61,000 nucleotides of DNA from NCBI GenBank assembly GCA_048938445.1, contig JBHLME010000007.1, positions 1-61,000 of the forward strand, given 5' to 3'. The position numbers and the translations under genes are program-made. Of this stretch, positions 19,761-38,446 are shown piece by piece; positions within the stretch are counted from its first letter, which is position 1, and each line of letters begins with the position of its first letter. This DNA comes from Promethearchaeota archaeon (lineage in GTDB: Archaea > Asgardarchaeota > Lokiarchaeia > Sigyniarchaeales > SOKP01). Below the pieces are notes generated by a model. It was given only the letters and a program-made list of their open reading frames with translations. It had not been told where the DNA came from and ran no database searches.

Positions 19761-19766
19761 AACTCA

Positions 19767-21095: not shown

Positions 21096-21098
21096 ACT

Positions 21099-23438: not shown

Positions 23439-23450
23439 GGTGGTCATAAA

Positions 23451-24643: not shown

Positions 24644-25288
24644 ATGAGTTTATTAGATAAAATTAAAGGATTGATAGGAAGTAATGAAATACAAGAAATC
24701 ATTAAAGAATTCAGCGATACTATTGATGCGGAAAAAAAATTAGTTAAAGAATCAAGACAACGAATTAGTAGCCTTATAGCATATTCAAAGGTTGAAACAC
24801 CCACCTTAAGAGAAGCTATCGAATCATTAGGAAATACTTTTGAAAACATTGATAATGCTAGAGAAGAAAAAATTGATCAAATGCAAGAAAAGTTCATCCA
24901 ACCTCTAAATCTCTTATTGGAAGAATTTAAAACTTTATCAATGGAATTACGTGAATCAGATAAAGCTAAAAAGGATTTAGATAAAGCAAAAGCTAAACTA
25001 ACTAAATTGAAGGGAAAACCAAAGGAAAAAATGAAACCATATCAAGTAGAAGATGCAGAAGATGCAGTAGGTAAAGCTGCACAAGAAGTATTGACAAAAG
25101 AAAAAGAAGCAAAGGAAGCAAGCGAAATATTCAATCGGAAAAAATTAGAGACTATGAAAGCGGTTTTAGATGATGTAATTTCAATTGAAAAAGATTTTCA
25201 TGAAAAAGTAATAAAATTTATGGCAACTGCCCAGAAAAAGACTGAAGCAATCGATTTAGAAGAAAAACCAGCTGAACTGCCCGAATAA
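24644..25288 (+). CDS. All-helical coiled-coil protein, BAR-domain-like
   Basis: 214 aa in three long amphipathic helices; FIQPL kink followed by Lys-rich DKAKKDLDKAKAKLTKLK. Confidence 0.65.
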   Translation: MSLLDKIKGLIGSNEIQEIIKEFSDTIDAEKKLVKESRQRISSLIAYSKVETPTLREAIESLGNTFENIDNAREEKIDQMQEKFIQPLNLLLEEFKTLSMELRESDKAKKDLDKAKAKLTKLKGKPKEKMKPYQVEDAEDAVGKAAQEVLTKEKEAKEASEIFNRKKLETMKAVLDDVISIEKDFHEKVIKFMATAQKKTEAIDLEEKPAELPE

Positions 25289-25376: not shown

Positions 25377-26783
25377 TTATTCAATTAAAAGTCCACGTTG
25401 TTTGAGTCCTTCTCTCATGTCTGCTTGAAATGGTCCTGGAGTTCCTTCGATAAAAGCATCAACAATATCTTGGTTTTCAATAACTCTAGAATCTCGCTTT
25501 TTTGCCTTCTCTTCAGCCAGTGATGAAATTACCATCTTTGCTATTGATTGAAATTGAGGTGGTGATAATTGTATTAATTCATTGAAAATTTCTTTAGTTT
25601 CAGGAATCCATTTAATTCCATCTCCTTGTTCTACTTTTTCTTTTGCATGACCAATCCCAAATTCACGGCTGGTTATGATATCATCAAGATAATTTTGAAT
25701 GGAATCAACATATTTTGTTGTTGCTTCTTCATTTAATATCACGGCTTTTTTTGCCCATTCCTTACAATAATTACATTCATCACACATCGCGATACAGTTT
25801 TGTTTTTTAAAAAAATCTATGAACCCATTTAATTTATTGTTATCAATATATAATTTAGCTGTAGATTCCTTTCCCAGCGTTCTACCTATTCCCGCGTTGG
25901 GATCAGTCTGTTCTAAGCCTCCATGTGACATTGAAAATCCTTGAATGATATCCACGAGATTACCATCATACTTTCTTTCGGAAAATGCTTTTACCGCTCT
26001 GACAATCCAATCTGTTGACATTCGCCTTCCAGCGATTTTAAAATCAGTTATTCCAATTTCTTCATAATGAGATAAATCCTCAGGACGGACCCAACGACAT
26101 TTGATAATTTCTTCTGGTTGAGAATATTTAATAATATTACAATTTAAAATGCATGTATCTATATAATTTCGCTCAAATTCTTGATGTGTTTGAGATGCGT
26201 GTCCTAATGTATTATAATGATAATGCCGAAAAGGGCACTGATATAAACAACCATCTGTTAAAAGCAAAACTATTTTACACTTTATTGCTTCTTTAATTTT
26301 ACTCAATGTTTTGAAATCCCGATTAATCATCACATCGGGCGTTATTTCGTCAGCACCGAGCATTTCATAGAACTTAGCACGGTTTACACTATTTACATGT
26401 GATATCGTAGAAACTCGGACTTTTAACTTTGGGAATTGCTCTTTAATAAGCTGTATTAAAAATGGAATAGTTACAATCACACTATCGGCTCCAATATCAC
26501 TAATCCATTGAAGATAATTGATAATTTCTTTATGGTAATGTGAATCATATTCCATATTATTCATGCAAGGAGCATTGAGTAAATAAGAAAATTCCATTTT
26601 ATTTTTATGTAATTTTTTGACATATTCTATGATATTCTCTTCAGTTACCTTAGGTAATAAAAAGGAAGGACGACCCCCTCCCACGATGCTATGATCTGTC
26701 ACACCATATAAATCTGCTACGGGATATTTAGCTAATTTATCTATTAACTCAAAATCCCAATTAGTAGCTACGTAGAAATTCAT
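25377..26783 (-). CDS. U32-family Fe-S protein with C-terminal DUF2621/PCP_red-like module
   Basis: GGGRP, YLLNAPC, VST...VNS, INRDF, CLYQCP..HASQ...CILNC, WVRPEDL, FKIAGR, CIAMCDECNYC. ATG at 26783 follows AAGGTGA. Confidence 0.85.
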   Translation of the reverse strand: MNFYVATNWDFELIDKLAKYPVADLYGVTDHSIVGGGRPSFLLPKVTEENIIEYVKKLHKNKMEFSYLLNAPCMNNMEYDSHYHKEIINYLQWISDIGADSVIVTIPFLIQLIKEQFPKLKVRVSTISHVNSVNRAKFYEMLGADEITPDVMINRDFKTLSKIKEAIKCKIVLLLTDGCLYQCPFRHYHYNTLGHASQTHQEFERNYIDTCILNCNIIKYSQPEEIIKCRWVRPEDLSHYEEIGITDFKIAGRRMSTDWIVRAVKAFSERKYDGNLVDIIQGFSMSHGGLEQTDPNAGIGRTLGKESTAKLYIDNNKLNGFIDFFKKQNCIAMCDECNYCKEWAKKAVILNEEATTKYVDSIQNYLDDIITSREFGIGHAKEKVEQGDGIKWIPETKEIFNELIQLSPPQFQSIAKMVISSLAEEKAKKRDSRVIENQDIVDAFIEGTPGPFQADMREGLKQRGLLIE

Positions 26784-26883
26784 TAAATTCACCTTCTTTA
26801 ATTTCAGTTTTTTTCATAGTTTTTAATTTTTAATAAAAAATTTAATTAAATATTAACTTTTTTCAAAATTTCACCAATTTTTA

Positions 26884-28938
26884 TTATTTAATTGCAATCT
26901 CATGAGCCTTTGCGTTTAGGGGTAATAATGGTGCACATGCCATTAGCTTTGTGACATCACCCTCGACAACATACGTTCCAGACATAGTTGCTTGGATTGG
27001 ATCTGATTCTCCTGAATTAACCTTTTTAATCGTATTAAAATTTGTTTTGTGGATGATAGTTGGTACCTCAGGTCCAGAATATTCACCCATTCCCCAAGCC
27101 ATCTTACTATTATTAATATATTGCCAGTAATTCATCTCAGGTTTATCAGTTATAGAATATTGGAATACTAATGTCCCAATAGGTTCTAACATTTGCTCTA
27201 TATCTGGCAATTCATTATAAGCTTTCATAAAGCGTGTAAGATAAGCTTCCCATTCTTCTTTTGTCTCTAATTTTATTTCTTCTTTCATCTGCATTTTTTT
27301 TTTCACCTCCTTTCTTTTTTGATTAGAAATTTGTTTATCATTTATATTTCCCTCATCTTTGGCTTTCTGAGGAAGTAATTCACTGCTAAATGGTAAAGAC
27401 TTGACTGCATATATCTCCTCTTCACTCATGTAGCGCGTTAAATCAATATTCCTTTCGATTAAAAAATCAATATAATCATGCTTAAACGGTTGAGGAACTA
27501 ATTCAATTATAATTGCTATTAATAATTCTTTATTTACTTGTTTTAAACCTTGTTTTTCTGCTGTTCTCTCTGCAGTAAATCCTATTCCCTTTATGGCAGC
27601 ATTCTGTATCTCTTTAGGAATAATTGTCATGACTTCATTTAAGAATGCTTGTGCTTCTGGATCCCATTCTATTCCAAAATATGTATCTGATTCTATATCT
27701 TTAGCAGGAACCTTCAATTTTCTTTCTTCTTTAGGTACAAACATTTCCCAAGTATTAAGATAATCATAGAGATATGACATGAATTCTTTATAAGTCTCTG
27801 TATTCCCTCCTTCAGGTTGAGAATATGCTTTCTTCACAAAATTATTACAATAAAAACATGTAACTCCACAAGATTCTGCACATCTAAGTCCTCCGTGAGG
27901 TAAGTTTTGAATAAAACCGTCTAACTCGTCTCCATCTAATATTGCATCAAAATCAGGAACACTTAACATTATACTTTGGTTATCTGCATCACAACCCATT
28001 TTTTCTTGCCGTGCTGAAAATTCAGAAAATTGATTTCCCGCCAGTATCAATGGATCTGATACGAATGAATAACCATTAAATATTTCTCCTAGATTACCAC
28101 GGAAATCCTTACTACTATAAGCTTTTAAAACATTAATTAACCATTTAGTCCCATATCTTCTACCAGAAATTTTAAAATAATCCATACCAATATCAATATA
28201 TTTATCGAGATCGGATGGTTGGATCCATCTTCCCATAATGACTTGCTCGGGATTGAAGCATTTTTGATTTTGACAAGCAATGGTTGCCCAATCATTATAA
28301 TATCCTTCTAAACAATCATGAGTTTGACTTGCATGAGAACATTCCGTATAATGGAAAAAGCGATATGGACATTCATTAAGACAACAATCATTAGTGAGTA
28401 ATTCAATATCACATTTTACTTTTTCTCGAATTTCTTTAAGAATTGGAAAATTTCGATTAAGCATTATGGATAAAGTTAAAACACCATCAGAACCGATAAT
28501 TTCTTCCCACTCTAATGCTCTTTTTAAAGAATTTATTTCAGATATTACAGAAACTTTCAATTTTAATTTAGGATAGTAGTTTTTAACAAAATTTGCTAAA
28601 TATGGATCACTCACAGTTAAATAATCCATTTCCATATCATCCATCCAATCCAATTCTTTTAATGCTTTGGTTTGCTCTTCCGAATTAAATTTATAATATC
28701 CCAAGCATTCACCATTCCATAACCATGTAAATTTTAGATTTAAATTATGGACCTTGTTAATAAATGCTTCAATTTCTGATATATCTCTTTTAGCCATTAA
28801 AAAAAAGGGACGACCAGAACCAGTAAAACTCATGTCATATGTCCCATAAAAATCATGAACAGTTTGCTTTAATTTAAAATCGTCCTCTATTAGATTCAAT
28901 AAATCTGGCTTCCAGTTGCATGCTAATGAGATTCTCAA
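26884..28938 (-). CDS. U32-family Fe-S protein fused to DUF2621/PCP_red-like and SCP2-like domains
   Basis: GSGRP, LNRNF, CLNECP..HASQ, WIQPSDL, FKISGR, CAESCGVTCFYC. Then the IEWDPEA module and a C-terminal DPIQATMSGTYVVEGDVTKLM. TTG start after GAGGTGA. Confidence 0.85.
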   Translation of the reverse strand: MRISLACNWKPDLLNLIEDDFKLKQTVHDFYGTYDMSFTGSGRPFFLMAKRDISEIEAFINKVHNLNLKFTWLWNGECLGYYKFNSEEQTKALKELDWMDDMEMDYLTVSDPYLANFVKNYYPKLKLKVSVISEINSLKRALEWEEIIGSDGVLTLSIMLNRNFPILKEIREKVKCDIELLTNDCCLNECPYRFFHYTECSHASQTHDCLEGYYNDWATIACQNQKCFNPEQVIMGRWIQPSDLDKYIDIGMDYFKISGRRYGTKWLINVLKAYSSKDFRGNLGEIFNGYSFVSDPLILAGNQFSEFSARQEKMGCDADNQSIMLSVPDFDAILDGDELDGFIQNLPHGGLRCAESCGVTCFYCNNFVKKAYSQPEGGNTETYKEFMSYLYDYLNTWEMFVPKEERKLKVPAKDIESDTYFGIEWDPEAQAFLNEVMTIIPKEIQNAAIKGIGFTAERTAEKQGLKQVNKELLIAIIIELVPQPFKHDYIDFLIERNIDLTRYMSEEEIYAVKSLPFSSELLPQKAKDEGNINDKQISNQKRKEVKKKMQMKEEIKLETKEEWEAYLTRFMKAYNELPDIEQMLEPIGTLVFQYSITDKPEMNYWQYINNSKMAWGMGEYSGPEVPTIIHKTNFNTIKKVNSGESDPIQATMSGTYVVEGDVTKLMACAPLLPLNAKAHEIAIK

Positions 28939-28942
28939 ATAA

Positions 28943-30094
28943 TCACCTCTTTATGACACCTTTTTCCATATTATTCATTTTATTTTTTATAATGTCTATG
29001 ATTTTATCCTGGTGTTGAATGTTTCCATTATGTAATTTTTTTGCGTATTCTATACAATACTCATCGATTTCGTTTTCTTCGGGATAATGTAATTGATATG
29101 GAAATTTTTCACAAAATTCATTAATAATTTCTGGTTTTAATTGCATCATTGAATTCTTAACCCCATCTCGTGACCAGTAGTTTCCATATGGTTGGGGTAT
29201 GTTCAAAATTTCTTCAAAATTTACTGAAAGTTCTTTATTATCATAATTATTAATAATTCTCACTATTTTATCAGTTGAAAAACCACCAGTATAGAGAACG
29301 TAAGTTTCATATCCCAAATTTTCATATTGTTCAATATTACTTGGTGAAATCCAACCAGATTTTAAGAGATTTTCAGGATTTTCTAACCGTTCTTTCCAAC
29401 AATAAAGTAAGGGATAATCAAATTCATTTTCGACATCGGATAATTCTTCTTGATTAGGGAATACAGGAGAATTTATCGTCCGATGACTTTGCATGTTATG
29501 ATGTTGATACCAATGTATGCAACCCCAATTACAACCAATGTTTAATGGTAAAATGCAGTCAATTTCTTTAGTTTTCTTAAATTCTTGCTTGATCTTGATA
29601 AAATTTTTTAAAATTCTAAAATATCGAATAATATCTGGATGTAGGATAATATTGTCTGCTCCTATTTCAAAAAAAATCTTACCACGGTTCAAGGATGTTA
29701 CATATTGCGAATATGATAAGTATATCTTTGAGGAAAAATAATTTTCTTTAACAAAACCAATGTTATTTGGCGAAGATACAAGTAAGTTTTTATATTCCAA
29801 TCCTTGCAATGTTTCAAATAATTTCTTAGTAGCTTTATATTGTTCCATGTGAGCTTCAAGGTTCCCTTGACAAGTTGAATCAATTCCTGCTATAGGGATG
29901 ATACCATTATCTTGGATTGTTTTAGTATAATTCTTAAATTCTTCAAACGTAGGATTCTTTTTAGGTAAAAAAATTGATCCATTCCCAATTGGATTTTGAG
30001 GTACATGAACAATAACGTGTGAAACTGAGAGGTTCTTTTTTCCAATTTGGGTAATTAAATCTTCATCGTAATCTCCATCAATTATTAACTTCAT
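28943..30094 (-). CDS. Divergent U32-family protein
   Basis: IGNG, VTSLNRG, HPDIIR, CNWGC..H..SH, WISPSNIEQYE align with the two neighbouring U32 proteins. The FKxxGR motif is absent. Confidence 0.7.
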   Translation of the reverse strand: MKLIIDGDYDEDLITQIGKKNLSVSHVIVHVPQNPIGNGSIFLPKKNPTFEEFKNYTKTIQDNGIIPIAGIDSTCQGNLEAHMEQYKATKKLFETLQGLEYKNLLVSSPNNIGFVKENYFSSKIYLSYSQYVTSLNRGKIFFEIGADNIILHPDIIRYFRILKNFIKIKQEFKKTKEIDCILPLNIGCNWGCIHWYQHHNMQSHRTINSPVFPNQEELSDVENEFDYPLLYCWKERLENPENLLKSGWISPSNIEQYENLGYETYVLYTGGFSTDKIVRIINNYDNKELSVNFEEILNIPQPYGNYWSRDGVKNSMMQLKPEIINEFCEKFPYQLHYPEENEIDEYCIEYAKKLHNGNIQHQDKIIDIIKNKMNNMEKGVIKR

Positions 30095-30140
30095 TGTTTA
30101 CTCTTTTTTTTGTTTAATTTTTATTAAAAAAAAATAAATT

Positions 30141-31751
30141 TTATTTATATGAATCAATTCCTGCCTTACAACCCATTGCTAAGAAATCTACCATGGTTCC
30201 ATTGTAGTCATTTTCAATCTTATAGTAGTGGCCATTAGGTGTGAAAGTAACTCCCCAAATTGCTTTCTTAGAATCACTTTGGAGAGGTGTTCTTTCTAGA
30301 AAATCTTTCATTAATGGATGAAAATGTACTGGTACATCTTCAGTTTTATCACATGACATCCCAAAACATAAACGTTCAATTTTATCTGAATTCCAGCTAA
30401 ATGTGTAATTTAAATGAGCGGCCTTCATGCATCCTTCCATCGCTTCCTTTGATACAGCTTTAAATCCCAGGTCTTCAACAAGTGCTACACAATTTTCATA
30501 AGATGATTTGGGTGGTTCTTTAAGCATGAAATAAATATTTACTGTCTTATGTAGAAAATCAAATGCAAATAGACTAAATGCTGTTAATCCATGCCTTTCA
30601 AAGTATTTTTTATAGTTCTTCATGCTTTCTGGTATATATTTCATTGAGAAAATTGGTTCAATTGAACCTGGAACAATAAATGGCCAGATTTTTGATAATC
30701 CTGTACTTGCATCTACATCTACACCATAACCCATCATTTGAAAAGTTTCCATGGTTTCCCTCATCATGCTATGAATCGGATGATCATCTTTTTCAATTAA
30801 TCCCTCATTAACAGCGTGTGTATAAGGATCTGGATCATGAGGCATGAAAAATTCAACATATCTAAGTGCAACATCTCTTTTTTCAACTGGTTTGGTTGTA
30901 GTTCGAATTGAGACTGGTGCTCCTGCAAAGAAATCTTTATAGGCTTCTATGGCTTTCTGAGCCGTGTTCTTATTGAATTTCACTCCTGTTATATCACAAA
31001 TTTTCTCAAAATCTATTAACATTTGATTCAAATCATTTGTACATTTAAAGTTAGATTGTACTTTAGCCAGATATCTATTATAATCAACTCCCATTTTTTC
31101 CAGATCCGCTGCCATAACCGGTTGAAATGCAGTAGGTGTAACTTCAAACAAAGCAACTATGAGATCTACTTCTGCTACAATCTTTCCTTGTCGCTCTTTA
31201 CATTTAATTTCAGTCTTTTCTAATAGTTCAGGTGCTACAACAGGTCTTACCATTTCTGGCATGTTTAAAACAACCTTATCATAGAGTTCTTTTACTTCTG
31301 GGGCCCATTCCATTGTACTAGACACAGCTGAATTATCAGTTATTGAAGCAGATCCAATTACTTTTTCATGAGCAACTACTTGTAGAGGTAATAAAGGAGC
31401 GCAAGCCATTAGTTTAGCCATATCCCCTTCAACCACGTAAATACCTTGCATGGTTGCTTCTATTGGATTTTGTTCTCCGTTAAATACCTTTCTCACGACT
31501 TCAAAATCAGCTTTATGAACGAGTTTAATATAATCTCCATTTTCAGGATTCTCACCCATCCCTCCACGAATACCATTTTTATCAAAAGCGTGCCAAAAGT
31601 TCAACTCTGGATGATCATTTAAACTATATTGGAATATAGTTGGTTCAATATTACTTAAAATCGGAGTAACATCGGGTAAAGCATTAAATGCTTTGGTTAA
31701 TTTTTCTATATAATCAGTCCAATTAGTTAAATCTCGCAATTCATTTATCAT
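30141..31751 (-). CDS. ABBA-type (NphB/CloQ family) aromatic prenyltransferase with N-terminal SCP2-like and DUF2621/PCP_red-like domains
   Basis: The C-terminal ~300 aa follow the NphB/CloQ motif order: DPY..AV.EGL....HPI, YGVD....GLSKIW, F.RHGL....FDF..KTVNIYF, LVEDLGF, YTFSWNSDKIERLCF, G.TFTP.GHYYKIE.DY. Confidence 0.85.
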   Translation of the reverse strand: MINELRDLTNWTDYIEKLTKAFNALPDVTPILSNIEPTIFQYSLNDHPELNFWHAFDKNGIRGGMGENPENGDYIKLVHKADFEVVRKVFNGEQNPIEATMQGIYVVEGDMAKLMACAPLLPLQVVAHEKVIGSASITDNSAVSSTMEWAPEVKELYDKVVLNMPEMVRPVVAPELLEKTEIKCKERQGKIVAEVDLIVALFEVTPTAFQPVMAADLEKMGVDYNRYLAKVQSNFKCTNDLNQMLIDFEKICDITGVKFNKNTAQKAIEAYKDFFAGAPVSIRTTTKPVEKRDVALRYVEFFMPHDPDPYTHAVNEGLIEKDDHPIHSMMRETMETFQMMGYGVDVDASTGLSKIWPFIVPGSIEPIFSMKYIPESMKNYKKYFERHGLTAFSLFAFDFLHKTVNIYFMLKEPPKSSYENCVALVEDLGFKAVSKEAMEGCMKAAHLNYTFSWNSDKIERLCFGMSCDKTEDVPVHFHPLMKDFLERTPLQSDSKKAIWGVTFTPNGHYYKIENDYNGTMVDFLAMGCKAGIDSYK

Positions 31752-32167
31752 ATTCTTAACCTCTTTTATAATTTATTTTCTTTAAATTTTTTTTAATTAT
31801 TTATTACTTTTTCATGAGCTACTACTTGTAATGGTAAAAAGGGAGCGCAAGCCATTAATTTAGTCATATCCCCATCAACCACATAAAGTCCTGCCATAGT
31901 AGCTTGGACAGGATTTTGTTCTCCAGAAAAAACTTTTCTCACGATATCAAAGTTAGCTTTATGGATGAGTTTGATATAATCTGTATCTTCTGTATTTTCA
32001 CCCATCCCTCCTCGAATACCATTTTTATCAAAAGCGTGCCAAAAGTTCAGCTCTGGATGATCATTAAGATTATATTGGAAAATAGTAGGTTCTACATTTG
32101 TTAATAGTGGTTTGATTTCTGGTAAATCATTAAATTCTTTTGTTAACCTTGTTATATAATCCGTCCA
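31356..32167. repeat. Direct repeat of a 366-bp SCP2-like domain (31356-31721 and 31802-32167)
   Basis: Two copies offset by 446 nt. Hand alignment gives 96/122 identical residues. They share the identical stretch cgaataccatttttatcaaaagcgtgccaaaagttca. Confidence 0.9.
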
Positions 32168-33304
32168 TTCGCTAATATCTAATAATTTATGTTCCTTAGA
32201 TGCGGAAACATCAATAGTATCGCTACAAGGACAACGTGTGCATATCGGTAAAAGTTTATCATTTATCATCCCCTGACGAAATTTACGTATTTGATCTGAA
32301 TCCCACACTTCAGTTAATGGTTTCTCAGTTATATTGCCAAAACTTTTTACTATATATGGACAGTTATAGACGGAACCATCTGGTCCCACATTTGGTGTTA
32401 GTGGCGGCATTAAAGTTAATTGACAGATCGGTTGTTCTTGTTCTCTTAGGGTTCTCCTCCAATAAATTTCAGGATGATCCCCAAAAAATTTTGAGAAAAA
32501 CATTACTTGAATTCCAGATTTCTTCCCTTCTTCTTTCGCAGCATTTATACTATTGATTAATTGTTGTTCTGTATATGATAATTCTCCAACATGTCCATTA
32601 ATCTCAACATCCTCACCAATCCATTTTTTCATTAATTTTTTAGATTCTTTTATCTCATCTTCAGTGATTACATGTCCAAAGATAAAATTTACAGATCCTA
32701 CACCTAATTCAGCACCTAATTTAACCATATCGGGCAATACGTTAACATTTTCATTGACAATAGTGCAATGAATCCATGTCGACAAACCTGCATCTACAAG
32801 CATTTTAATAGCATCTATAGATTTTTGGGGCGCTTTTGTTGAACCCCGGATCTTGCCATCTATTTCACCTGGTGCATTCAATGATACCTGAATATTGACA
32901 AAATTCTCTAATGCTGCTAAACGTTTCACAATAGATTCAGTTATCATCGTACCATTTGTAGACATTATTTGATTTATTCCTTGAGCATCAAAATATTCGA
33001 TCATTTCTATCATTTCATTAATAACGAATGGTTCACCCCCTAAATGGAATAAAACCTTCGCATCCTTAAATCCTTCTTTAATTTGCTCTAATGACATGGA
33101 TGGAATCTTACGGCCTTTCATGTGTTTTACAAGGCACATGTAGCAATTTAAATTGCAATTGTAACTAGCATAAAAACACACATCACCAAGACCACCAGAA
33201 AGTCCATTTTCTCCAATTTTTTTTATAACTTCTAAGGGAGTATCCTTTCCCAATGGCATGGCTTCACGAAGTGATACACCACATCCTATTTGTTCTTCAT
33301 TCAT
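31793..33304 (-). CDS. Radical SAM / twitch-SPASM protein with C-terminal SCP2-like domain
   Basis: CNLNCYMC, GGEPF, STNG, IRG, C...PDGSVYNCP..FGNI....L.EVW...CTRC, then the SCP2-like domain. Confidence 0.9.
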   Translation of the reverse strand: MNEEQIGCGVSLREAMPLGKDTPLEVIKKIGENGLSGGLGDVCFYASYNCNLNCYMCLVKHMKGRKIPSMSLEQIKEGFKDAKVLFHLGGEPFVINEMIEMIEYFDAQGINQIMSTNGTMITESIVKRLAALENFVNIQVSLNAPGEIDGKIRGSTKAPQKSIDAIKMLVDAGLSTWIHCTIVNENVNVLPDMVKLGAELGVGSVNFIFGHVITEDEIKESKKLMKKWIGEDVEINGHVGELSYTEQQLINSINAAKEEGKKSGIQVMFFSKFFGDHPEIYWRRTLREQEQPICQLTLMPPLTPNVGPDGSVYNCPYIVKSFGNITEKPLTEVWDSDQIRKFRQGMINDKLLPICTRCPCSDTIDVSASKEHKLLDISEWTDYITRLTKEFNDLPEIKPLLTNVEPTIFQYNLNDHPELNFWHAFDKNGIRGGMGENTEDTDYIKLIHKANFDIVRKVFSGEQNPVQATMAGLYVVDGDMTKLMACAPFLPLQVVAHEKVINN

Positions 33305-33338
33305 ATTTTATTCACTTTTTTTGTCTTTTTTTGGTTTT

Positions 33339-34754
33339 TTATTTTTGATATAATGCAAATTGAACATTGCTCATTTCATCAAATCCTTCTGGATTATTGA
33401 ATCCCAGTCCAGGCATCATCCATCTTGGATTTGCTTTACCATAATTTCTTACAACTTTAAAAAGATCTACCTCTTTGATCTTTGGAGATATATAAAATCT
33501 TGGTTTTAGTAGATTTTCTCCTAATTGTATGATTCCTTCTTCTTCGGCTATTAGCTGAAGGGGTGTATGGGGATAAATTCTCATCCCTACAAAGACTATT
33601 ACATCTCCATCTCCTTGCCACAAGTTCCCTTTATGACTTTTTATTGATTCAAGCCTATCTAAGGAAGCTTGAACCGTTTCGAGAGTCTCTCCCGGACCTC
33701 CAACAATAATATGAATTAATTGTTCTATCTCCAAATCTACACATTTTTCTGATGTAAGGATTGCATCATCGGGAGATCTCTTCTTGTTCATGTTTTCCAA
33801 CATTTCTTCAGATAAGGATTCGATACCTGTTGCAAAATGAACTGCACCACTCTCTTTCATCAAGGGCATTAAATCAAGAAATTCTTTACTTGGAACATAG
33901 TTAGCACCCCATTTTACATCGATTTTAGAGTTTATAATTTCTTGGCAAGTGTTCCTTACATGATTATGATTTAAATTAAATATACTATCAACAAAAAATA
34001 AGTTTTTTATTCCATAATTATTTACCATTAATTCAAGCTCTGTTGCGATACTTTTAGGAGACCGATACCGAACATTTGAACCTTCAATATATCTATAACT
34101 ACAATAAATGCAATTCATTGGGCATCCACGCTTGCTTTGAATGTTTCCCCAAGTAACATTAGATTTTTTCAATGGATCAATAAAATAGGCATCATTTTCC
34201 AATAATTCTCTTGTAGGTATAGGAAGATCATCTAGATTTTCAACACGCCATGGTGGCTTCTGATGATATTTTCCATTTTTATCTATGAAACATATGCCTT
34301 TCTCTAGGTTCCTAATATCTTCATCATTTTCGATTTTCTTTAATATTTCAGCTAATACATATTCTCCATCACCAACCACGCCAATATCATGATTCAAATC
34401 CCTAAGAATTTCTTCTGAAAATATTGAAAAACCCGCGCCACCTAAAATGATAGGGATCTCTGGTTCTACAAGGTCTTTTATAAATTGAATTATATTTTTG
34501 ACCGGTAAGTAAAAAAATAGATTTCCGGGGTATGTCGTTGAGTCAACGTTTCGAATTGAAATACCTATTAATTGCGGAGAAAAATCATCAATTATCTTTG
34601 AAATATCCCTTTTATGATCATTACTTAATGTTAAATCAATCAACTTTACTTCATGACCTTGATTAAGGAGATACGCTGCTATATATGCTTCTCCTATGGG
34701 TGGAACCATGACGTGAACTATTTCCCGACTTCCGGAGATTATTAACACTCTCAT
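33339..34754 (-). CDS. Cobalamin-dependent radical SAM protein (resembles the 'lipid biosynthesis B12-binding/radical SAM' family)
   Basis: PPIG, GISIRNVD, ILGGAGFSIF, QSKRGCPMNCIYC, FVDSIFN, GGPGET, GMRIYPHTPL, LLKPRFYISP. Confidence 0.88.
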   Translation of the reverse strand: MRVLIISGSREIVHVMVPPIGEAYIAAYLLNQGHEVKLIDLTLSNDHKRDISKIIDDFSPQLIGISIRNVDSTTYPGNLFFYLPVKNIIQFIKDLVEPEIPIILGGAGFSIFSEEILRDLNHDIGVVGDGEYVLAEILKKIENDEDIRNLEKGICFIDKNGKYHQKPPWRVENLDDLPIPTRELLENDAYFIDPLKKSNVTWGNIQSKRGCPMNCIYCSYRYIEGSNVRYRSPKSIATELELMVNNYGIKNLFFVDSIFNLNHNHVRNTCQEIINSKIDVKWGANYVPSKEFLDLMPLMKESGAVHFATGIESLSEEMLENMNKKRSPDDAILTSEKCVDLEIEQLIHIIVGGPGETLETVQASLDRLESIKSHKGNLWQGDGDVIVFVGMRIYPHTPLQLIAEEEGIIQLGENLLKPRFYISPKIKEVDLFKVVRNYGKANPRWMMPGLGFNNPEGFDEMSNVQFALYQK

Positions 34755-34787
34755 TCTTTTTTACCTTCCTTTTTCACACTTTAAATT

Positions 34788-36188
34788 TTATTCAATTAAT
34801 TCAATTTCTTCTTCTAAAACATTTTCCACTTTATGATCATGGTCGTTTTCATGCCAACAAAAAGGGAACGATCCAAAAAAATCACCTGTGATATATTCAG
34901 CAGTCACACGACAACCGCCTCCACAATATTTGAGATGATGGCAAGATGCACACTTTCCCTTTATTTTCTTTCTATCCCGAATATCCTTATAGAGTTGGGA
35001 ATTTAATACATCTTCAAAATTATCTTTTAATGCATTTCCAAGGGTTAATTTTGTTGGATATCCAGCAGGATATATTGTTCCATCTATACCAATTCCCATC
35101 ATCGTCCTACAAGCAAGACAACCAACTCCCCATTCAATTGCAGCCAGTTCCTTATCGTCTTTGGGTTGTTCCATAAAAGGCATCATGTCATATATTTCAT
35201 AAGCGGGTAAAGTACCAGCATCACCTTTTTTTATTGTTTCTATAGCATGCTTGTATTTAAAATCATACATCTTTTTGTATTCTTCCGTATTGAGACCAAT
35301 TTCATCCCAATATTCAGCAGCTCGATTTTGTTTTACCACGCATCTAAAATATGGTTGTGAACCCCATTTTTCTGACAATTCTTTAAGTTCTTCAAGCTCA
35401 TCAACATTTTGTTTCATGATTGTAATTGATGAGCAGACAAAAATCCCATATTTCAAACAAACATCAATTGCTTTTTTAGCATATTCTAAGGAATTGGGAA
35501 ATCCTCGAAGTTCATCATTTTTTTTTGGATCAGAACTGTCAAAACTGACGAATACATGACTGATATTGTTTTCCTTACACATTTTGGCAAAATTTTCATC
35601 AAACCTTACACCATTGGTAATGAGCGCATGGATGTAATCCTTATCTTTACAAAATTTCATGATCTCCCCAATATCTTTTCTTAGAGTAGGTTCACCACCA
35701 AACCATACAAAACAAGCATGTCTTCCTTGTTTTCTTAAGCCTTCTTCAACATTTTCTATGATATGGCACCATTCTTTCGCTGATATTTCGGGACGAGGTA
35801 TGTGATCATCCGCTGCACAATGAAGACATTTTTGATTACACTTATCCGTAAGATACATCGCAAAATGGATATTACCTGGATGAAATCCTCTTTCCAACTT
35901 TTGCCAAGACACTTTCAGGCGATCTTTTATATCCTTGAGTTCAATGTATCGATCAACATCAATCCCTAATGATGTCAAGTCTTCAACCATTATGGATTTA
36001 AATGCTTCTGGAATGATATCAAATATCCCCATAACAACATCAGCATCATTAATATAAGCACCATTTCTATCCAGGCATCGATTTTCAGCGGCTTCTACTA
36101 TTAAGGGTTCTACAGAAGGACGGAATCCTTGTGGCATTTGTTCAACAATTCTACCAAACAATACTTGCGTTTCTTTTTCCCATTCCAT
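34788..36188 (-). CDS. Radical SAM/SPASM protein with N-terminal DUF2621/PCP_red-like module
   Basis: CNQKCLHC, FGGEPTLR, TNG, SFD; SPASM CASCHHLKYCGGGCR...PFC. GAGGTGA precedes the start. Confidence 0.9.
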   Translation of the reverse strand: MEWEKETQVLFGRIVEQMPQGFRPSVEPLIVEAAENRCLDRNGAYINDADVVMGIFDIIPEAFKSIMVEDLTSLGIDVDRYIELKDIKDRLKVSWQKLERGFHPGNIHFAMYLTDKCNQKCLHCAADDHIPRPEISAKEWCHIIENVEEGLRKQGRHACFVWFGGEPTLRKDIGEIMKFCKDKDYIHALITNGVRFDENFAKMCKENNISHVFVSFDSSDPKKNDELRGFPNSLEYAKKAIDVCLKYGIFVCSSITIMKQNVDELEELKELSEKWGSQPYFRCVVKQNRAAEYWDEIGLNTEEYKKMYDFKYKHAIETIKKGDAGTLPAYEIYDMMPFMEQPKDDKELAAIEWGVGCLACRTMMGIGIDGTIYPAGYPTKLTLGNALKDNFEDVLNSQLYKDIRDRKKIKGKCASCHHLKYCGGGCRVTAEYITGDFFGSFPFCWHENDHDHKVENVLEEEIELIE

Positions 36189-36199
36189 AAAATTTCACC

Positions 36200-37597
36200 T
36201 CAGATTTGTTTTTGAACAATCGATTTTTCACTAAGATAATCTTCATGTTCATGATCATCATCATGCCAGCAGAAAGGTAGAGCTGCTAAAAAATCACCTG
36301 TTTCATTTTCAGCATGCACCCTACAACCACCACCACACATCTCGAGATGATGACAAGTTGAGCATCTTCCTTTTATCTTCCTATCTCTAATAGCTTTAAA
36401 CATGTCAGAATCCATAATTTCTTGAAAGCTTTGTGTTAAAACATTGCCTAAAGTTAACTGAGAGGGATAATCACAAGGGAAGAAATCTCCATTTACATCG
36501 ATACCCGATACAGACCTACAAGCTTGGCATCCTACACCCCATTCTAATGCAGTTCGTTCTTCATCCGTGCGAGGGCATTCCATAAAGGGAACCATATCAT
36601 AAGTATAAACCTTGTTGAGAAAATTGGCTTCACCTTTCCTAACAGCTTCAACTACATGCTTAAACTTGAAGTCATAAAATTGGCGATATTGATCATAATC
36701 CAATCCGATATCTTCCCAATTTTTCTCTGCTGTTCTTTGCTTGATAACTGCTCTAAAATAAGGTAATGCACCCATAGATTCTAATTTCTCTTGGATTTTA
36801 TCTAACTCATCAAAATTCTCTTGTTGAACTGTGGCGGTACAAATAACGAGATGACCATAGTCAAGTGCTAATTTAATAGCTTTTTCAGCAGCTTCTTGTG
36901 CTTTTGGATGCCCTCTTATTTTAGCAGCCCTTTCGGGATAAACACTATCATAGCTTATGAATACGTGATGCATCTTAACATCAGCACATAGTTTAGCTAA
37001 GTCTTCATTAAATAATAGACCATTTGTAGAAATTGCTTGAAAATATCCTTTTTCACCAGTATATTTAATAAGTTCTTTAATATCATTGCGAAGAGTGGGT
37101 TCTCCTCCAAACCAAATATAGCAACCTCGACGATCTTGTTTGCGTAATGTTTGTTCAACATTTTCTAAAATATCAATCCATTGTTCTGTCGATAATTCTG
37201 GACGTTTACCCATTAATTCAGCAGCACAATGAAGACATTTTTGATTGCATCGATCAGTTAAATACATGGTAAAATGATATACTCCTGGGGCCCATGCTCC
37301 TCCTATATCATCCCATGTGCGAGCATATGCTTTTCTCGCTTCAGATAATTTTATATATCGATCTGTATCAATCCCTAGTTTCGTCAAATCTTGTACAACA
37401 GCAGGTTGAAATGCCTCTGGCGTTATTTCAAATAATGCCGATAATAAATCATCCTTATTGACATATCCAGAATTCCTCAACCGTGCTGTCTTTTCAGCAG
37501 CCTCATGGAGCATTGGTGCTATTGATGCACGGAACATTTCAGGTGTCTGCGCCATGATTACATCATACATTCCTTTAATTTCTTTTTTCCATTCCAT
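36200..37597 (-). CDS. Radical SAM/SPASM protein with N-terminal DUF2621/PCP_red-like module, paralog of 34788-36188
   Basis: CNQKCLHC, FGGEPTLR, STNG; SPASM CQAC...GDFFPC...CSTCHHLEMCGGGCR...PFC. Confidence 0.9.
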   Translation of the reverse strand: MEWKKEIKGMYDVIMAQTPEMFRASIAPMLHEAAEKTARLRNSGYVNKDDLLSALFEITPEAFQPAVVQDLTKLGIDTDRYIKLSEARKAYARTWDDIGGAWAPGVYHFTMYLTDRCNQKCLHCAAELMGKRPELSTEQWIDILENVEQTLRKQDRRGCYIWFGGEPTLRNDIKELIKYTGEKGYFQAISTNGLLFNEDLAKLCADVKMHHVFISYDSVYPERAAKIRGHPKAQEAAEKAIKLALDYGHLVICTATVQQENFDELDKIQEKLESMGALPYFRAVIKQRTAEKNWEDIGLDYDQYRQFYDFKFKHVVEAVRKGEANFLNKVYTYDMVPFMECPRTDEERTALEWGVGCQACRSVSGIDVNGDFFPCDYPSQLTLGNVLTQSFQEIMDSDMFKAIRDRKIKGRCSTCHHLEMCGGGCRVHAENETGDFLAALPFCWHDDDHEHEDYLSEKSIVQKQI

Positions 37598-37702
37598 ATT
37601 AATACACTTCTTTAGGTTTTAAAAATACGTATTTTATTTTTTTAAATTTAAGTTTAAAATGCAAATTATTTTTGAATCTATAATATATTGAAAATTTCAT
37701 TA

Positions 37703-38446
37703 TTAGATTACCCTCATTTGTTTAAAATCTTTATTAAAATCAGAATAATTATTAATTATGAGATGAGGAATATGAAAGGTTGAGTAATAAAAACTTGATC
37801 CCAAAAATCCATGAAGAAAATAAGAAGAAACAGTACTTCCATGAAATTTATTATATTGGAATTCAACTTTTTGATAAAAATTAGTATTTTTTATTTTTGT
37901 TTTTTTCCAAAATCTAAATAAAGTAGGGGCTTTTCCTTTTATTTTGGGAAATTGTCTAATGTAATTCTCAGTAGGATCATTATAGAGGTCACCTTTCTGC
38001 TCAACATTTGGTTTAAGCATGGTGGGTTGATATGTTATGGGAATGGATGATTCTTCTGATGTTTGAGAATCATCATTAGTATTAAGCTCACAAAAATCTA
38101 TATATAGGTATATTTGGAACTTCCTGCTAATAAACACGACTTTTATGTAATGATAAAAGGTCGTGTCAAGGAGAAACAAAAGATTTATTATAATAATAAG
38201 ATCTATCAAATGTCCAAGGGTAAATCCCCCTAGATTAGAAGATGATGGAATAGATGGAATTATCTCAATTCTCGGAAAATATGGAAAAAATAGAGAATTA
38301 CCAGATAAAATATAATCCTGAAAAAATATTGAAAAAACAGAAGTGTTTGTTAATTGTAAATATATGAATATAACTGGAAGCAATGAGAGAAATGAAATAA
38401 CTAAGAATAGTGCTATAAATTTAATGTTTTTTTTCTCTTTATGCAT
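37703..38446 (-). CDS. Hypothetical membrane protein upstream of the operon
   Basis: 247-aa ORF with two hydrophobic segments and atypical composition; no motif recognised. Confidence 0.45.
   Translation of the reverse strand: MHKEKKNIKFIALFLVISFLSLLPVIFIYLQLTNTSVFSIFFQDYILSGNSLFFPYFPRIEIIPSIPSSSNLGGFTLGHLIDLIIIINLLFLLDTTFYHYIKVVFISRKFQIYLYIDFCELNTNDDSQTSEESSIPITYQPTMLKPNVEQKGDLYNDPTENYIRQFPKIKGKAPTLFRFWKKTKIKNTNFYQKVEFQYNKFHGSTVSSYFLHGFLGSSFYYSTFHIPHLIINNYSDFNKDFKQMRVI

What the first reader, a model, noticed from the sequence alone, without database searches (positions are those of the whole stretch)
25377..37597. One ~80-aa helical module fused to five enzymes of three unrelated families: candidate docking or assembly tag
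The pattern (M/I)(E/K)W..E....(F/Y/L)......P..(F/V/I)(R/Q).........(A/T)E.......V/I...........P..F(Q/K)......L...(G/N) appears five times. It is N-terminal in both SPASM enzymes (37355-37597, 35946-36188), internal in the prenyltransferase (31071-31313) and one U32 (27430-27672), and C-terminal in the last U32 (25377-25616). It has an internal pseudo-repeat (TPEMFR / TPEAFQ) and no conserved Cys or His. It resembles DUF2621 and the PCP_red C-terminal domain of DPOR BchB (recalled, not searched). Position-independent fusion to unrelated catalysts in one operon suggests a protein-interaction tag that assembles a metabolon, or a shared substrate- or carrier-recognition element analogous in role to an RRE.
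Basis: partly seen in the sequence, partly recalled or inferred. Interest (0 to 1): 0.88.

Follow-up and report, generated by a model that had tools for sequence, protein, structure and literature searches.

The report
Shared helical adaptor domain on Asgard enzymes
An Asgard archaeon attaches the same small, non-catalytic helical domain of unknown function to five enzymes of three unrelated families in one operon that probably makes a greasy prenylated aromatic compound without oxygen; what the domain binds is still unknown.

Summary
Five ~84-aa segments at the stated coordinates are homologous (9 of 10 pairs, BLAST E <= 0.004). A profile of them finds 9 copies in this genome (E <= 4e-29) and then nothing better than E 0.29. 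Four of the nine lie in a second, paralogous cluster on another contig.

The module folds alone (AF2 pLDDT 94) as a duplicated strand-helix-helix unit. It is a distant relative of Pfam DUF2621/PCP_red. All five copies score below Pfam's cut-offs, but free-standing relatives pass them.

The operon is conserved in Promethearchaeota, and one Clostridia genome bin holds a related cluster. It holds U32 proteins, SCP2 domains, an ABBA prenyltransferase and radical SAM enzymes. It looks like a UbiT/U/V-style oxygen-free pathway to a prenylated aromatic lipid.

Module copies group by partner enzyme, which implies three old fusions followed by duplications.

Function is inferred, not shown. The best guess is a non-catalytic adaptor that holds the enzymes on a shared lipophilic intermediate or its carrier complex; a cis substrate lid is the main rival.

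This scan noted the same module before in 7 windows of 6 other genomes, with the same reading. I found no paper on it.

The parts
37346..37597 (-). Module copy 1, N-terminus of rSAM-SPASM enzyme A (residues 1-84)
   Evidence: A1 alignment. Profile hit E 2.0e-38. DUF2621 16.5 bits. AF2 pLDDT 94.3.
35937..36188 (-). Module copy 2, N-terminus of rSAM-SPASM enzyme B (residues 1-84)
   Evidence: Profile hit E 3.5e-38. DUF2621 19.8 bits. 48% identical to copy 1.
31062..31313 (-). Module copy 3, internal in the SCP2-module-prenyltransferase protein (residues 147-230)
   Evidence: Profile hit E 7.6e-38. DUF2621 18.1 bits. Position.
27421..27672 (-). Module copy 4, internal in U32b (residues 423-506), between the U32 domain and the SCP2 domain
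   Evidence: Profile hit E 2.9e-34. DUF2621 23.2 bits and PCP_red 18.4 bits.
25380..25616 (-). Module copy 5, C-terminus of U32a (residues 393-471); lacks the last short helix
   Evidence: Profile hit E 1.5e-30. DUF2621 26.3 bits.
36200..37597 (-). Gene: module + radical SAM + SPASM (enzyme A, 465 aa)
   Evidence: Pfam Radical_SAM and SPASM. Nearest NCBIfam models are NirJ1, AhbD and AhbC, all below their cut-offs. AF2 pTM 0.85. Foldseek matches SkfB, anSME, CteB and SuiB.
34788..36188 (-). Gene: module + radical SAM + SPASM (enzyme B, 466 aa), a paralogue of A
   Evidence: Pfam. 49% identical to A over 453 residues.
33339..34754 (-). Gene: B12-binding radical SAM enzyme; carries no module
   Evidence: Pfam B12-binding and Radical_SAM. 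No module at E < 0.9.
31793..33304 (-). Gene: radical SAM-SPASM enzyme C with a C-terminal SCP2 domain (31796-32179); carries no module
   Evidence: Pfam. Its SCP2 domain is 75% identical to the SCP2 of the prenyltransferase protein.
30141..31751 (-). Gene: SCP2 (31368-31751) + module + ABBA aromatic prenyltransferase (536 aa)
   Evidence: PTase_Orf2 E 8.5e-52. Sequence matches to the solved AmbP1, AmbP3, NphB and CloQ.
28943..30094 (-). Gene: U32c, a divergent U32 paralogue without a module
   Evidence: BLASTP against U32a E 2.7e-23. No Pfam hit. Module profile only E 0.08.
26884..28938 (-). Gene: U32b = U32 + module + SCP2 (26887-27264), 684 aa
   Evidence: Pfam. Invariant Cys residues, including a CX3CX3CX2C group at 353-364.
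25377..26792 (-). Gene: U32a = U32 + module, 471 aa
   Evidence: Peptidase_U32 E 1.6e-13. Invariant Cys at 76, 172, 182, 186, 214, 218 and a CX3CX2CX2C group at 333-343.
37703..38446 (-). Gene: conserved unknown membrane protein (247 aa, two hydrophobic segments) at the head of the operon
   Evidence: Found directly upstream of enzyme A in 19 of the 22 Asgard loci L011-L030, L032 and L033, and elsewhere in the locus in one more (L016). Alignment and hydropathy. No Pfam or NCBIfam hit.

Best explanation
The module is an autonomous, non-catalytic helical domain of about 84 residues from the DUF2621/PCP_red superfamily. It was fused long ago to three kinds of enzyme (U32, rSAM-SPASM, ABBA prenyltransferase) and was then carried along through gene duplications.

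The operon most likely makes a prenylated, hydroxylated and methylated aromatic lipid (quinone-like) without O2, in the manner of the proteobacterial UbiT/U/V system.

In that setting the module most likely acts as an adaptor. Through type-specific surfaces it holds each enzyme in a common assembly around the lipophilic intermediate, which is carried by the SCP2 domains. The intermediate is then handed from enzyme to enzyme instead of being lost to the membrane or the cytosol.

Shown here: homology of the copies, fold, superfamily, fusion pattern and conservation of the operon. Inferred: the product class, and every statement about binding.
For: 1. The copies are homologous and specific to the operon. 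This genome has 9 copies, all in two paralogous clusters. Loci L011-L033 hold 88 copies: 45 on SPASM enzymes, 18 on prenyltransferases, 18 on U32a and 7 on U32b.

2. It is an independent fold. AF2 on the module alone gives pLDDT 94.3 and pTM 0.84. Free-standing forms of 80-100 aa exist in many bacteria.

3. Nothing suggests catalysis. The only universally conserved positions are W3, P19, E35, P60 and F63, plus near-universal R41, D50 and L71. No Cys or His is conserved.

4. It tolerates any position. It is N-terminal, C-terminal or internal. Prenyltransferases carry it N-terminally in 17 loci and C-terminally in 1 locus (L028) and in representatives P0010 and P0017. Read directly from the sequence, the linkers are Gly/Ser/charge-rich in U32a (about 12 aa), U32b (about 22 and 55 aa) and between SCP2 and the module (about 15 aa).

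5. It co-occurs with a lipid carrier. SCP2 is present in 18 of the 23 loci L011-L033; four of the loci without it are cut by contig ends. SCP2 is fused to the module in U32b-module-SCP2 and SCP2-module-prenyltransferase.

6. Among the 75 longer database hits the partners are again mostly pathway enzymes. By my local profiles: 27 U32, 15 prenyltransferase, 9 SPASM, 2 SCP2 and 1 B12-rSAM. Pfam adds single cases of a class I methyltransferase, an HpaB-type hydroxylase fragment, a PNPOx-like protein and LuxC+SPASM. This is the enzyme repertoire of quinone-type lipid pathways.

7. There is precedent. In E. coli the SCP2 protein UbiJ binds ubiquinone intermediates and organises a multi-enzyme Ubi complex. 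UbiT (SCP2) accompanies the U32 hydroxylases UbiU and UbiV, and a ubiT-ubiU fusion exists (PMC6747719, passages read).
Against: No binding is shown by anything done here.

Module copies group strictly by partner enzyme, and within-type conservation is high. That equally fits a domain that works in cis with its own catalytic domain.

In the full-length AF2 model of enzyme A the module joins the core through a confident helix (residues 78-91), and only residues 94-96 fall below pLDDT 50. The overall pTM is 0.85. This does not look like a freely swinging tag.

Not all pathway enzymes carry the module. The B12-rSAM, U32c and SPASM_C proteins lack it.

The related cluster in a Clostridia genome bin has six module-bearing enzymes. 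Its prenyltransferase lacks the module, and no operon-type SCP2 was found in that 4.3-Mb bin.

Some loci keep only one or two module-bearing genes (L018; G144), so a full set of tags is not required.

Distant relatives sit on proteins with no lipid link: NuoE-like 2Fe-2S proteins and BchB-like proteins.
Confidence: 0.42

Rival explanations
1. Cis-acting substrate lid or clamp. The module packs against its own catalytic domain and forms part of the entrance for the shared hydrophobic substrate (for example the prenyl tail). It would act much as N-terminal accessory domains do in SPASM peptide maturases, without bridging to other proteins.
For: The module tree follows the partner enzyme. Many positions are conserved within a type but differ between types. 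In enzyme A the connection is short and confident, and pTM is 0.85. Foldseek alignments of the full model to CteB and SuiB span 409-449 columns. From my own recall, those enzymes carry an N-terminal accessory domain in the same place. The enzymes that lack the module (B12-rSAM, U32c) would simply not need it.
Against: The domain works at either end of the prenyltransferase. It is separated by long, low-complexity linkers in U32b. It exists free-standing and membrane-anchored in bacteria. Tandem module-module forms exist (P0046, P0140, P0082). An 84-residue compact bundle with a packed core offers little room for a lipid on its own.
Confidence: 0.3
2. Docking site for a shared redox partner. 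The module recruits a low-potential electron carrier (ferredoxin or flavodoxin-like) to the Fe-S enzymes of the pathway.
For: Most carriers of the module are Fe-S enzymes: rSAM-SPASM, U32 with invariant Cys groups, and one B12-rSAM. In U32a and U32b a second invariant four-Cys group lies about 50 residues before the module. Relatives include NuoE-like 2Fe-2S proteins with two modules and BchB-like proteins.
Against: The ABBA prenyltransferase is not a redox enzyme, yet 18 of 19 of them in the loci carry the module. A class I methyltransferase fusion also exists. No ferredoxin or flavodoxin gene is conserved in the operon.
Confidence: 0.1
3. Passive structural or folding aid. The domain is inherited for solubility or stability and has no specific ligand.
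For: Only core and helix-capping residues are conserved across all types. No partner was identified.
Against: It has been kept on three enzyme families across a phylum and in a bacterium. Within-type conservation is high. It has been fused independently to many other enzymes.
Confidence: 0.12
4. Peptide-recognition element of a RiPP-like pathway. The module binds a leader peptide or a protein substrate, as an RRE does.
For: The architecture 'accessory domain + rSAM + SPASM' resembles RiPP maturases. The nearest solved folds are SkfB, CteB, SuiB and PqqE. A conserved unknown protein is encoded at the head of the operon.
Against: The fold is helical, with only a two-residue bridge rather than a winged helix with a three-stranded sheet. 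A Pfam scan at E <= 10 gave no PqqD or RRE family. SCP2 domains, an NphB/CloQ-type prenyltransferase, U32 proteins and, in the bacterial cluster, DAHP synthase and a UbiE-like methyltransferase all point to a small aromatic lipid.
Confidence: 0.06

Closest known systems
Pfam PF11084 (DUF2621), function unknown
   Same: The whole module aligns to model positions 56/57 to 128-137 in all five copies. Free-standing relatives retrieved by the module profile pass the family cut-off in 5 of 10 tested. The nearest ESM Atlas clusters are 85-96-aa bacterial proteins, of which 22-47% of members carry DUF2621.
   Different: The window copies score 16.5-26.3 bits, below the 27.7-bit cut-off. The Bacillota members found here are single-copy proteins of about 145 aa with an N-terminal hydrophobic segment and no enzyme fusion. 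They lie next to ccdC in 2 of the 5 loci whose neighbours I scanned. From recall only, I equate these with B. subtilis YneK.
PCP_red (PF08369): C-terminal domain of DPOR subunit BchB/ChlB, and small proteins such as Asr4154 (PDB 2kru, 2l09)
   Same: The first half of the module (strand, helix, 'P..F.R' helix, 'AE..A' motif) matches this 45-position model in one window copy and in 28 of the 75 rows of alignment A3. Entries 2l09 and 2kru are among the fold matches (VIA Z 6.3 and 5.6; Foldseek ranks 9 and 8). Like the module, it is a small helical appendage on an Fe-S enzyme that handles a hydrophobic substrate.
   Different: PCP_red covers only about half of the module. All scores are below the 32.5-bit cut-off. 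No nitrogenase-like protein is involved here. I found no assigned function for PCP_red either. The DPOR papers I read in passages discuss a different BchB helix (residues 398-420) that caps the substrate.
UbiT/UbiU/UbiV O2-independent ubiquinone hydroxylation, and the UbiJ-centred Ubi complex of E. coli
   Same: U32 proteins with invariant Cys groups occur together with an SCP2 lipid-binding domain. U32-SCP2 fusions occur here and in Zymomonas. In E. coli the SCP2 protein organises a multi-enzyme complex around lipid intermediates (PMC6747719, passages read).
   Different: No module is described in the Ubi proteins. The prenyltransferase here is a soluble ABBA (NphB/CloQ-type) enzyme, not UbiA. 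Radical SAM enzymes stand where UbiD/X/E/G would be expected. The Cys spacing in U32a (CX3CX27CX3C, read from the sequence) differs from the CX6CX15CX3/4C pattern quoted in the paper. The host is an anaerobic Asgard archaeon and the product is unknown.
RiPP recognition elements (PqqD-like RRE) fused to diverse RiPP enzymes
   Same: One small accessory domain recurs on unrelated enzymes of one cluster. It sits at the N-terminus of rSAM-SPASM enzymes.
   Different: The fold differs and no PqqD family match was found. No precursor peptide was recognised. The cluster has lipid-pathway features.
AAA+ lid domains (BchI, MCM, ORC, Rpt) and histone folds
   Same: These are the best raw fold matches: BchI lid Z 8.0, MCM and ORC lids Z 7-8. 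Histone folds head the Foldseek list at E about 0.1. The 'AE..A...g..V...D' motif resembles the lid and histone helix-strand-helix motif.
   Different: None of the five proteins has a P-loop ATPase core. The Z values lie within the range the tool's own note calls a common helical arrangement. The sequence matches are not significant (E >= 0.07).

Membership tests
Pfam DUF2621 (PF11084) | Score at or above the curated gathering cut-off (27.7 bits) | tested here: not met
   The five window copies score 16.5, 19.8, 18.1, 23.2 and 26.3 bits.
Pfam DUF2621 (PF11084) | Colinear alignment to the family's C-terminal domain, and a chain of relatives that are accepted members | tested here: met
   All five copies align to model positions 56/57 to 128-137. 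54 of the 75 rows of A3 match at E <= 0.01, best 3.4e-12. 5 of 10 free-standing relatives score 30.4-34.7 bits.
Pfam DUF2621 (PF11084) | N-terminal hydrophobic segment (model positions 1-55), as in the Bacillota members | tested here: not met
   The window copies match only from model position 56/57. The Bacillota proteins of 142-177 aa have the segment.
Pfam PCP_red (PF08369) | Score at or above the cut-off (32.5 bits) | tested here: not met
   Only the U32b copy matches, at 18.4 bits; the other four give nothing at E <= 10.
Pfam PCP_red (PF08369) | Same fold as the solved PCP_red domains 2kru and 2l09 | tested here: inconclusive
   VIA Z 5.6 (60 aligned residues, rmsd 2.7) and Z 6.3 (57 residues, rmsd 3.3). 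Foldseek E 0.3, TM-score by target 0.54 and 0.59. These lie within the range of common helical arrangements.
Pfam PCP_red (PF08369) | C-terminal appendage of a nitrogenase-like BchB/ChlB subunit | tested here: not met
   The partners here are U32, rSAM-SPASM and ABBA prenyltransferase. True BchB-like carriers were seen only in Bacillota loci L060 and L061.
RiPP recognition element (PqqD-like) | Winged helix-turn-helix with a three-stranded sheet; PqqD family match | tested here: not met
   The AF2 model (pLDDT 94) has five helices and one two-residue bridge. No PqqD family appears at E <= 10.
AAA+ lid domain | Follows a P-loop AAA+ ATPase core in the same protein | tested here: not met
   None of the nine operon proteins has an AAA+ family hit. 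The fold likeness of Z 7-8 alone is inconclusive.
UbiT/U/V-like O2-independent hydroxylation system (operon level) | U32-family proteins with conserved Cys groups for Fe-S clusters | tested here: met
   Peptidase_U32 matches at E 1.6e-13 and 1.7e-9. U32c is a paralogue. Invariant Cys groups occur in 15, 8 and 8 aligned sequences (window protein included) of U32a, U32b and U32c. Cluster binding itself was not tested.
UbiT/U/V-like O2-independent hydroxylation system (operon level) | Accompanying SCP2 lipid-binding protein or domain | tested here: inconclusive
   The three window domains score 17.0-19.5 bits against a cut-off of 21.3. Relatives with the same architecture score 45.5 and 66.3 bits (P0091 and P0014).
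UbiT/U/V-like O2-independent hydroxylation system (operon level) | Hydroxylates a polyprenyl-phenol or quinone intermediate; the product is a quinone | not testable with these tools
   This needs expression and lipid analysis.
Docking or assembly tags (for example PKS/NRPS docking domains, dockerin-cohesin) | Demonstrated specific binding between tag and partner | not testable with these tools
   This needs binding experiments.

The most novel reading that the evidence does not exclude
The module types form a pairing code. Type-specific module-module contacts (or contacts between a module and the 247-aa membrane protein) would assemble a soluble or membrane-tethered, SCP2-centred metabolon that builds a so far undetected prenylated quinone-like redox lipid in strictly anaerobic Asgard archaea. 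This would be a genetically encoded docking-domain system for a lipid pathway. It would imply that DUF2621/PCP_red domains elsewhere (BchB, NuoE-like proteins, YneK-like proteins) are assembly modules too.
Probability: 0.15. Interest if true: 0.85.

Novelty: new variant of a known kind. Interest (0 to 1): 0.62.

Why it matters
DUF2621 and PCP_red are widespread domains with no assigned function. Here one of them is used systematically on three unrelated enzyme folds of a single pathway. That is the strongest available hint that the superfamily is an adaptor rather than an enzyme, and it gives an 84-residue, well-folding object that is easy to test by NMR or pull-down.

The host operon is apparently undescribed. 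[quoted passage not shown] That bears on their energy metabolism and on models of eukaryogenesis. If the adaptor reading holds, it would also be a compact natural tool for scaffolding pathways.

Tried and rejected
1. Complex prediction of the SCP2 domain (A4) against the module (A5): the job returned 'no answer' (score 0.00, controls not run). It counts neither for nor against binding.

2. Sequence search of the PDB with module profiles A1 and A3: nothing significant. The best hits were histone-fold proteins, Lon and a mite allergen at E 0.07-0.3.

3. TPR/STAND-NTPase proteins in the representative search (P0028, P0087, P0106, P0120, P0136, with 5-10 stretches each): the broader A3 profile does not find them again. 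I treat them as repeat-driven false hits. I infer, but did not check per protein, that the TPR, nSTAND_NTPase5 and PNP_UDP_1 tallies belong to them.

4. A degenerate module in U32c (profile E 0.08, residues 322-369): rejected, because that stretch aligns to the catalytic part of U32a.

5. The search for homologous proteins with A3, 'longer' lengths: the list was crowded by SPASM_A orthologues (23 of the 24 hits; the other was a U32 protein) and gave no new partners.

The neighbours of the Bacillota DUF2621 genes are heterogeneous: CcdC, epimerase/DUF1731, a xylose-isomerase-like TIM-barrel protein, SbcD and an AAA_28 kinase-like protein. No functional lead came from this.

7. Short module-only frames in Asgard genomes G210, G144 and G204: two of the four (G210) sit beside a second copy of the 247-aa protein gene and look like remnants of a decayed second operon copy; the other two look like remnants too, and none looks like a trans-acting version.

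8. Literature: no paper holds 'DUF2621'. 'PCP_red' gave six irrelevant papers. Asgard with UbiU/UbiT, with U32/prenyltransferase/radical SAM, and with quinone biosynthesis, and U32+SCP2+archaea, all gave nothing on this cluster or domain.

9. The histone-fold reading (handshake dimer): not adopted, because AF2 gives a compact monomeric bundle and the Foldseek E values are about 0.1 or weaker.


Full report
WHAT IS THERE

On the minus strand, 25377-38446 holds nine co-directional genes. In order of transcription:
- an unknown 247-aa protein with two hydrophobic segments;
- module + radical SAM-SPASM enzyme A;
- module + radical SAM-SPASM enzyme B;
- a B12-binding radical SAM enzyme;
- radical SAM-SPASM enzyme C + SCP2;
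- SCP2 + module + ABBA aromatic prenyltransferase (PTase_Orf2, E 8.5e-52);
- U32c, a divergent U32 paralogue (BLASTP E 2.7e-23 to U32a);
- U32b = U32 + module + SCP2;
- U32a = U32 + module.

The five module segments align without large gaps. They are 24-48% identical to the first copy, and W3, E6, P19, E35, P60, F63 and L71 are invariant.

IS IT MORE THAN CHANCE?

Yes. Nine of the ten pairs among the five copies give BLASTP E between 0.004 and 4e-25 at a proteome-sized database; SPASM_A against U32a is linked only through the other copies. A profile of the five finds nine places in the 4.6-Mb genome at E 2e-38 to 4e-29, and the next match is at E 0.29.

The four extra copies lie in a paralogous cluster at the end of contig C144. 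That cluster holds a U32a cut by the contig end, a free-standing 135-aa SCP2, two module-prenyltransferases, a B12-rSAM, two module-SPASM enzymes and the 245-aa unknown protein.

WHAT KIND OF DOMAIN IS IT?

All five copies hit Pfam DUF2621 over model positions 56/57 to 128-137 (E 8e-6 to 9e-3, 16.5-26.3 bits, cut-off 27.7). The U32b copy also hits PCP_red (18.4 bits, cut-off 32.5).

A search of 1.84 billion representative proteins with the profile gave 245 hits at E <= 1e-3 and 71 at E <= 1e-10. Of the 150 listed hits, 75 are shorter than 130 aa. Some of these are gene fragments, such as P0004 and P0008. Many are complete proteins of 80-100 aa.

I aligned 70 of the short hits with the five window copies (A3, 75 rows). 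Of these rows, 54 hit DUF2621 (best E 3.4e-12) and 28 hit PCP_red (best E 1.1e-8) at E <= 0.01. Five of 10 free-standing relatives tested singly pass the DUF2621 cut-off. The ESM Atlas places the module nearest to clusters of 85-96-aa bacterial proteins that are partly annotated DUF2621.

I therefore call the module a distant relative within the DUF2621/PCP_red superfamily. By Pfam's own thresholds it is not a member of either family.

FOLD

AF2 with alignment A3 gives pLDDT 94.3 and pTM 0.84. The elements are strand 2-3, helices 5-17 and 20-40, strand 45-46, helices 48-58 and 61-73, and a short helix 79-82. A profile-profile comparison of the two halves gives P 6.8e-5 (probability 63%, 24 columns).

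Foldseek finds nothing at E <= 1e-3. Histone folds head the list, and the solved PCP_red structures 2kru and 2l09 are at ranks 8 and 9. The Foldseek-independent search puts AAA+ lid domains first (BchI Z 8.0; MCM, ORC and Rpt Z 7-8), with 2l09 at Z 6.3 and 2kru at Z 5.6. The tool's own note says such values are common for helical bundles. The fold is consistent with PCP_red but does not prove the relationship.

CONSERVATION AND HISTORY

A scan of one genome per species with enzyme A returned 24 loci. Twenty-two are from Promethearchaeota-type Asgard bins (labelled Loki, Thor, Hermod or Hel). One is from a bin labelled Pseudobacteroides (Clostridia). One is an unrelated weak hit.

The core arrangement is: unknown membrane protein, module-SPASM A, module-SPASM B, usually a B12-rSAM, module-prenyltransferase, free-standing SCP2, and U32a-module. 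An extended form adds SPASM C-SCP2, U32c and U32b-module-SCP2, as in this window.

These loci hold 88 module copies: 45 on SPASM enzymes, 18 on prenyltransferases, 18 on U32a and 7 on U32b. Eighteen of 19 prenyltransferases carry the module, 17 at the N-terminus and one (L028) at the C-terminus.

In a sample of 301 genomes of the phylum, 30 have the module, with 1-10 matches each. Twenty-three of these are among the 68 other sampled genomes of the window's own family.

A tree of the 93 operon modules splits by partner: (U32a, U32b) against ((SPASM_A, SPASM_B), prenyltransferase), with supports of 0.94-1.0 for the type clades. The U32a-U32b and SPASM_A-SPASM_B alignments run through the module. 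So there were three old fusions, then duplications, and no recent exchange between partners.

Universal conservation is limited to W3, P19, E35, P60 and F63, plus R41, D50 and L71. Each type has many positions of its own. Because the orthologues are close, that second point is weak.

PARTNERS ELSEWHERE

By local profiles, the 75 longer representative hits divide as follows:
- 27 U32 + module;
- 15 prenyltransferase + module (either end);
- 9 module + SPASM;
- 2 SCP2 + module fragments;
- 1 B12-rSAM + module;
- 16 with a module and other or no recognised partners;
- 5 TPR proteins, which the broader profile does not find again and which I discount.

Pfam on ten of the others shows LuxC + module + SPASM, an HpaB-type hydroxylase fragment + module, module + class I methyltransferase, module + PNPOx-like protein, and three proteins with a thioredoxin-like 2Fe-2S domain after the module region (two modules by my local profile); the sources of one cluster (P0082) name it NuoE.

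In Bacillota, 12 of 301 sampled genomes have a match. Eight are single-copy proteins of 142-177 aa with an N-terminal hydrophobic segment (DUF2621 proper), and a ninth is cut by a contig end. Two are BchB-like proteins of 502 and 540 aa with a C-terminal PCP_red. One is the Pseudobacteroides bin.

WHAT THE OPERON PROBABLY DOES

U32 proteins with invariant Cys groups, together with SCP2, recall UbiU/UbiV/UbiT. In that system UbiU-UbiV is an Fe-S heterodimer of O2-independent hydroxylases and UbiT is an SCP2 accessory protein. UbiJ's SCP2 binds ubiquinone intermediates and organises a multi-enzyme complex (PMC6747719, passages read).

The prenyltransferase is of the soluble aromatic NphB/CloQ/AmbP type. 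The SPASM enzymes are nearest to AhbD, NirJ and AhbC, and the B12-rSAM is nearest to lipid and BzaD-type enzymes, but all are far below the family cut-offs.

The related Clostridia cluster adds DAHP synthase, a UbiE-like class I methyltransferase, two HemN-like radical SAM proteins and a NUDIX protein.

Together this points to a shikimate-derived, prenylated, hydroxylated and methylated aromatic lipid made without O2. That is inference; no product is known.

WHAT THE MODULE PROBABLY DOES

Nothing suggests catalysis. The module is autonomous, tolerates any position, is often flanked by low-complexity linkers (U32a, U32b, SCP2 side), and recurs on successive enzymes of one pathway together with a lipid carrier. 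My best reading (0.42) is an adaptor that keeps the enzymes together on the lipophilic intermediate or its carrier complex.

The main rival (0.30) is a cis-acting substrate lid. The module tree follows the partner. In the full-length model of enzyme A (pLDDT 84.9, pTM 0.85) the module is joined by a confident helix (78-91), and only residues 94-96 fall below pLDDT 50.

Two points argue against a role tied strictly to SCP2. The Clostridia bin has six module-bearing enzymes, yet no operon-type SCP2 was detected in its 4.3 Mb; the bin may be incomplete. Some Asgard loci keep only one or two module-bearing genes.

A redox-partner docking role (0.10) fits the Fe-S partners and the NuoE/BchB relatives, but not the prenyltransferase and methyltransferase fusions. 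A RiPP-type peptide-recognition role (0.06) fits the architecture of the SPASM enzymes (Foldseek: SkfB, anSME, CteB, SuiB, PqqE), but not the fold or the lipid-pathway context.

NOVELTY

The domain family is catalogued but has no function, and I found no paper on it or on this cluster.

The scan itself has noted the same module in 7 windows of 6 other genomes, with the same conclusion and the same open question. I reached my reading before seeing those notes, and they are not independent evidence.

New here relative to those summaries:
- the second paralogous cluster in one genome;
- the partner-wise module tree (three fusions);
- the module-bearing bacterial cluster without a detected SCP2;
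- the decayed operon remnants;
- the second invariant four-Cys group just upstream of the module in U32a and U32b.

Noticed in passing
window 24644-25288 (+): A 214-aa protein with a BAR domain (Pfam BAR E 5e-11, 43.1 bits against a cut-off of 28.5; also FAM92 and BAR_3). This is a eukaryote-type membrane-curvature domain encoded right beside the operon in an Asgard genome.
   Followed up: no
G000 contig C144, 1-9203 (locus L046): A second, paralogous copy of the cluster in the same genome. It has a free-standing SCP2 and two tandem module-prenyltransferase genes, and it is cut by the contig end inside U32a.
   Followed up: partly
window 37703-38446 (-): The unknown 247-aa protein at the head of the operon is conserved in the Asgard loci. 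It has two hydrophobic segments, conserved 'Y..SG.S.F.P' and 'G.LID' motifs, and a variable tail that ends in a conserved '..EG' in most homologues, though not in the window's own copy. It could be the membrane anchor of the pathway.
   Followed up: partly
window 25377-26792 and 26884-28938 (-): Besides the Cys residues inside the U32 domain, U32a and U32b have a second invariant four-Cys group (U32a 333/337/340/343; U32b 353/357/361/364). It lies about 50 residues before the module and suggests an extra Fe-S cluster.
   Followed up: partly
L044 and L045 (G301 contig C57): A bin labelled Pseudobacteroides (Clostridia) carries a related cluster. It holds three U32a-module genes, three module-SPASM genes, a module-less prenyltransferase, a B12-rSAM, two HemN-like radical SAM genes, a UbiE-like methyltransferase, DAHP synthase, NUDIX and an adenylation-carrier protein. 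This could be transfer between domains of life or a binning error; I did not resolve which.
   Followed up: partly
L047 (G210 contig C4), L048 (G144), L049 (G204): Short module-only frames (65-85 aa). In G210 they sit beside a second copy of the 247-aa protein gene. They look like remnants of decayed operon copies.
   Followed up: partly
window 38754-40199 (+) and 40251-41711 (-): Two further B12-binding radical SAM genes flank the operon. The related Asgard loci also have one to three such genes upstream.
   Followed up: no
window 22179-23876 (+): A thiolase and a ChsH2/DUF35-type OB-fold protein lie side by side. From recall, this pairing is typical of the archaeal acetoacetyl-CoA thiolase complex that feeds the mevalonate pathway. 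It lies 1.5 kb from an operon that needs prenyl donors.
   Followed up: no
window 18297-21479 (+): Three genes in a row: DAO + BFD-like 2Fe-2S, a Pyr_redox_2 protein, and a DUF1667 protein. From recall, this looks like an anaerobic glycerol-3-phosphate dehydrogenase-like gene set.
   Followed up: no
L054 and L059 (Bacillota): The membrane-anchored DUF2621 gene lies next to a CcdC (DUF1453) gene in 2 of the 5 loci whose neighbours I scanned. From recall, this matches the ccdA-ccdB-ccdC-yneK arrangement of B. subtilis.
   Followed up: partly
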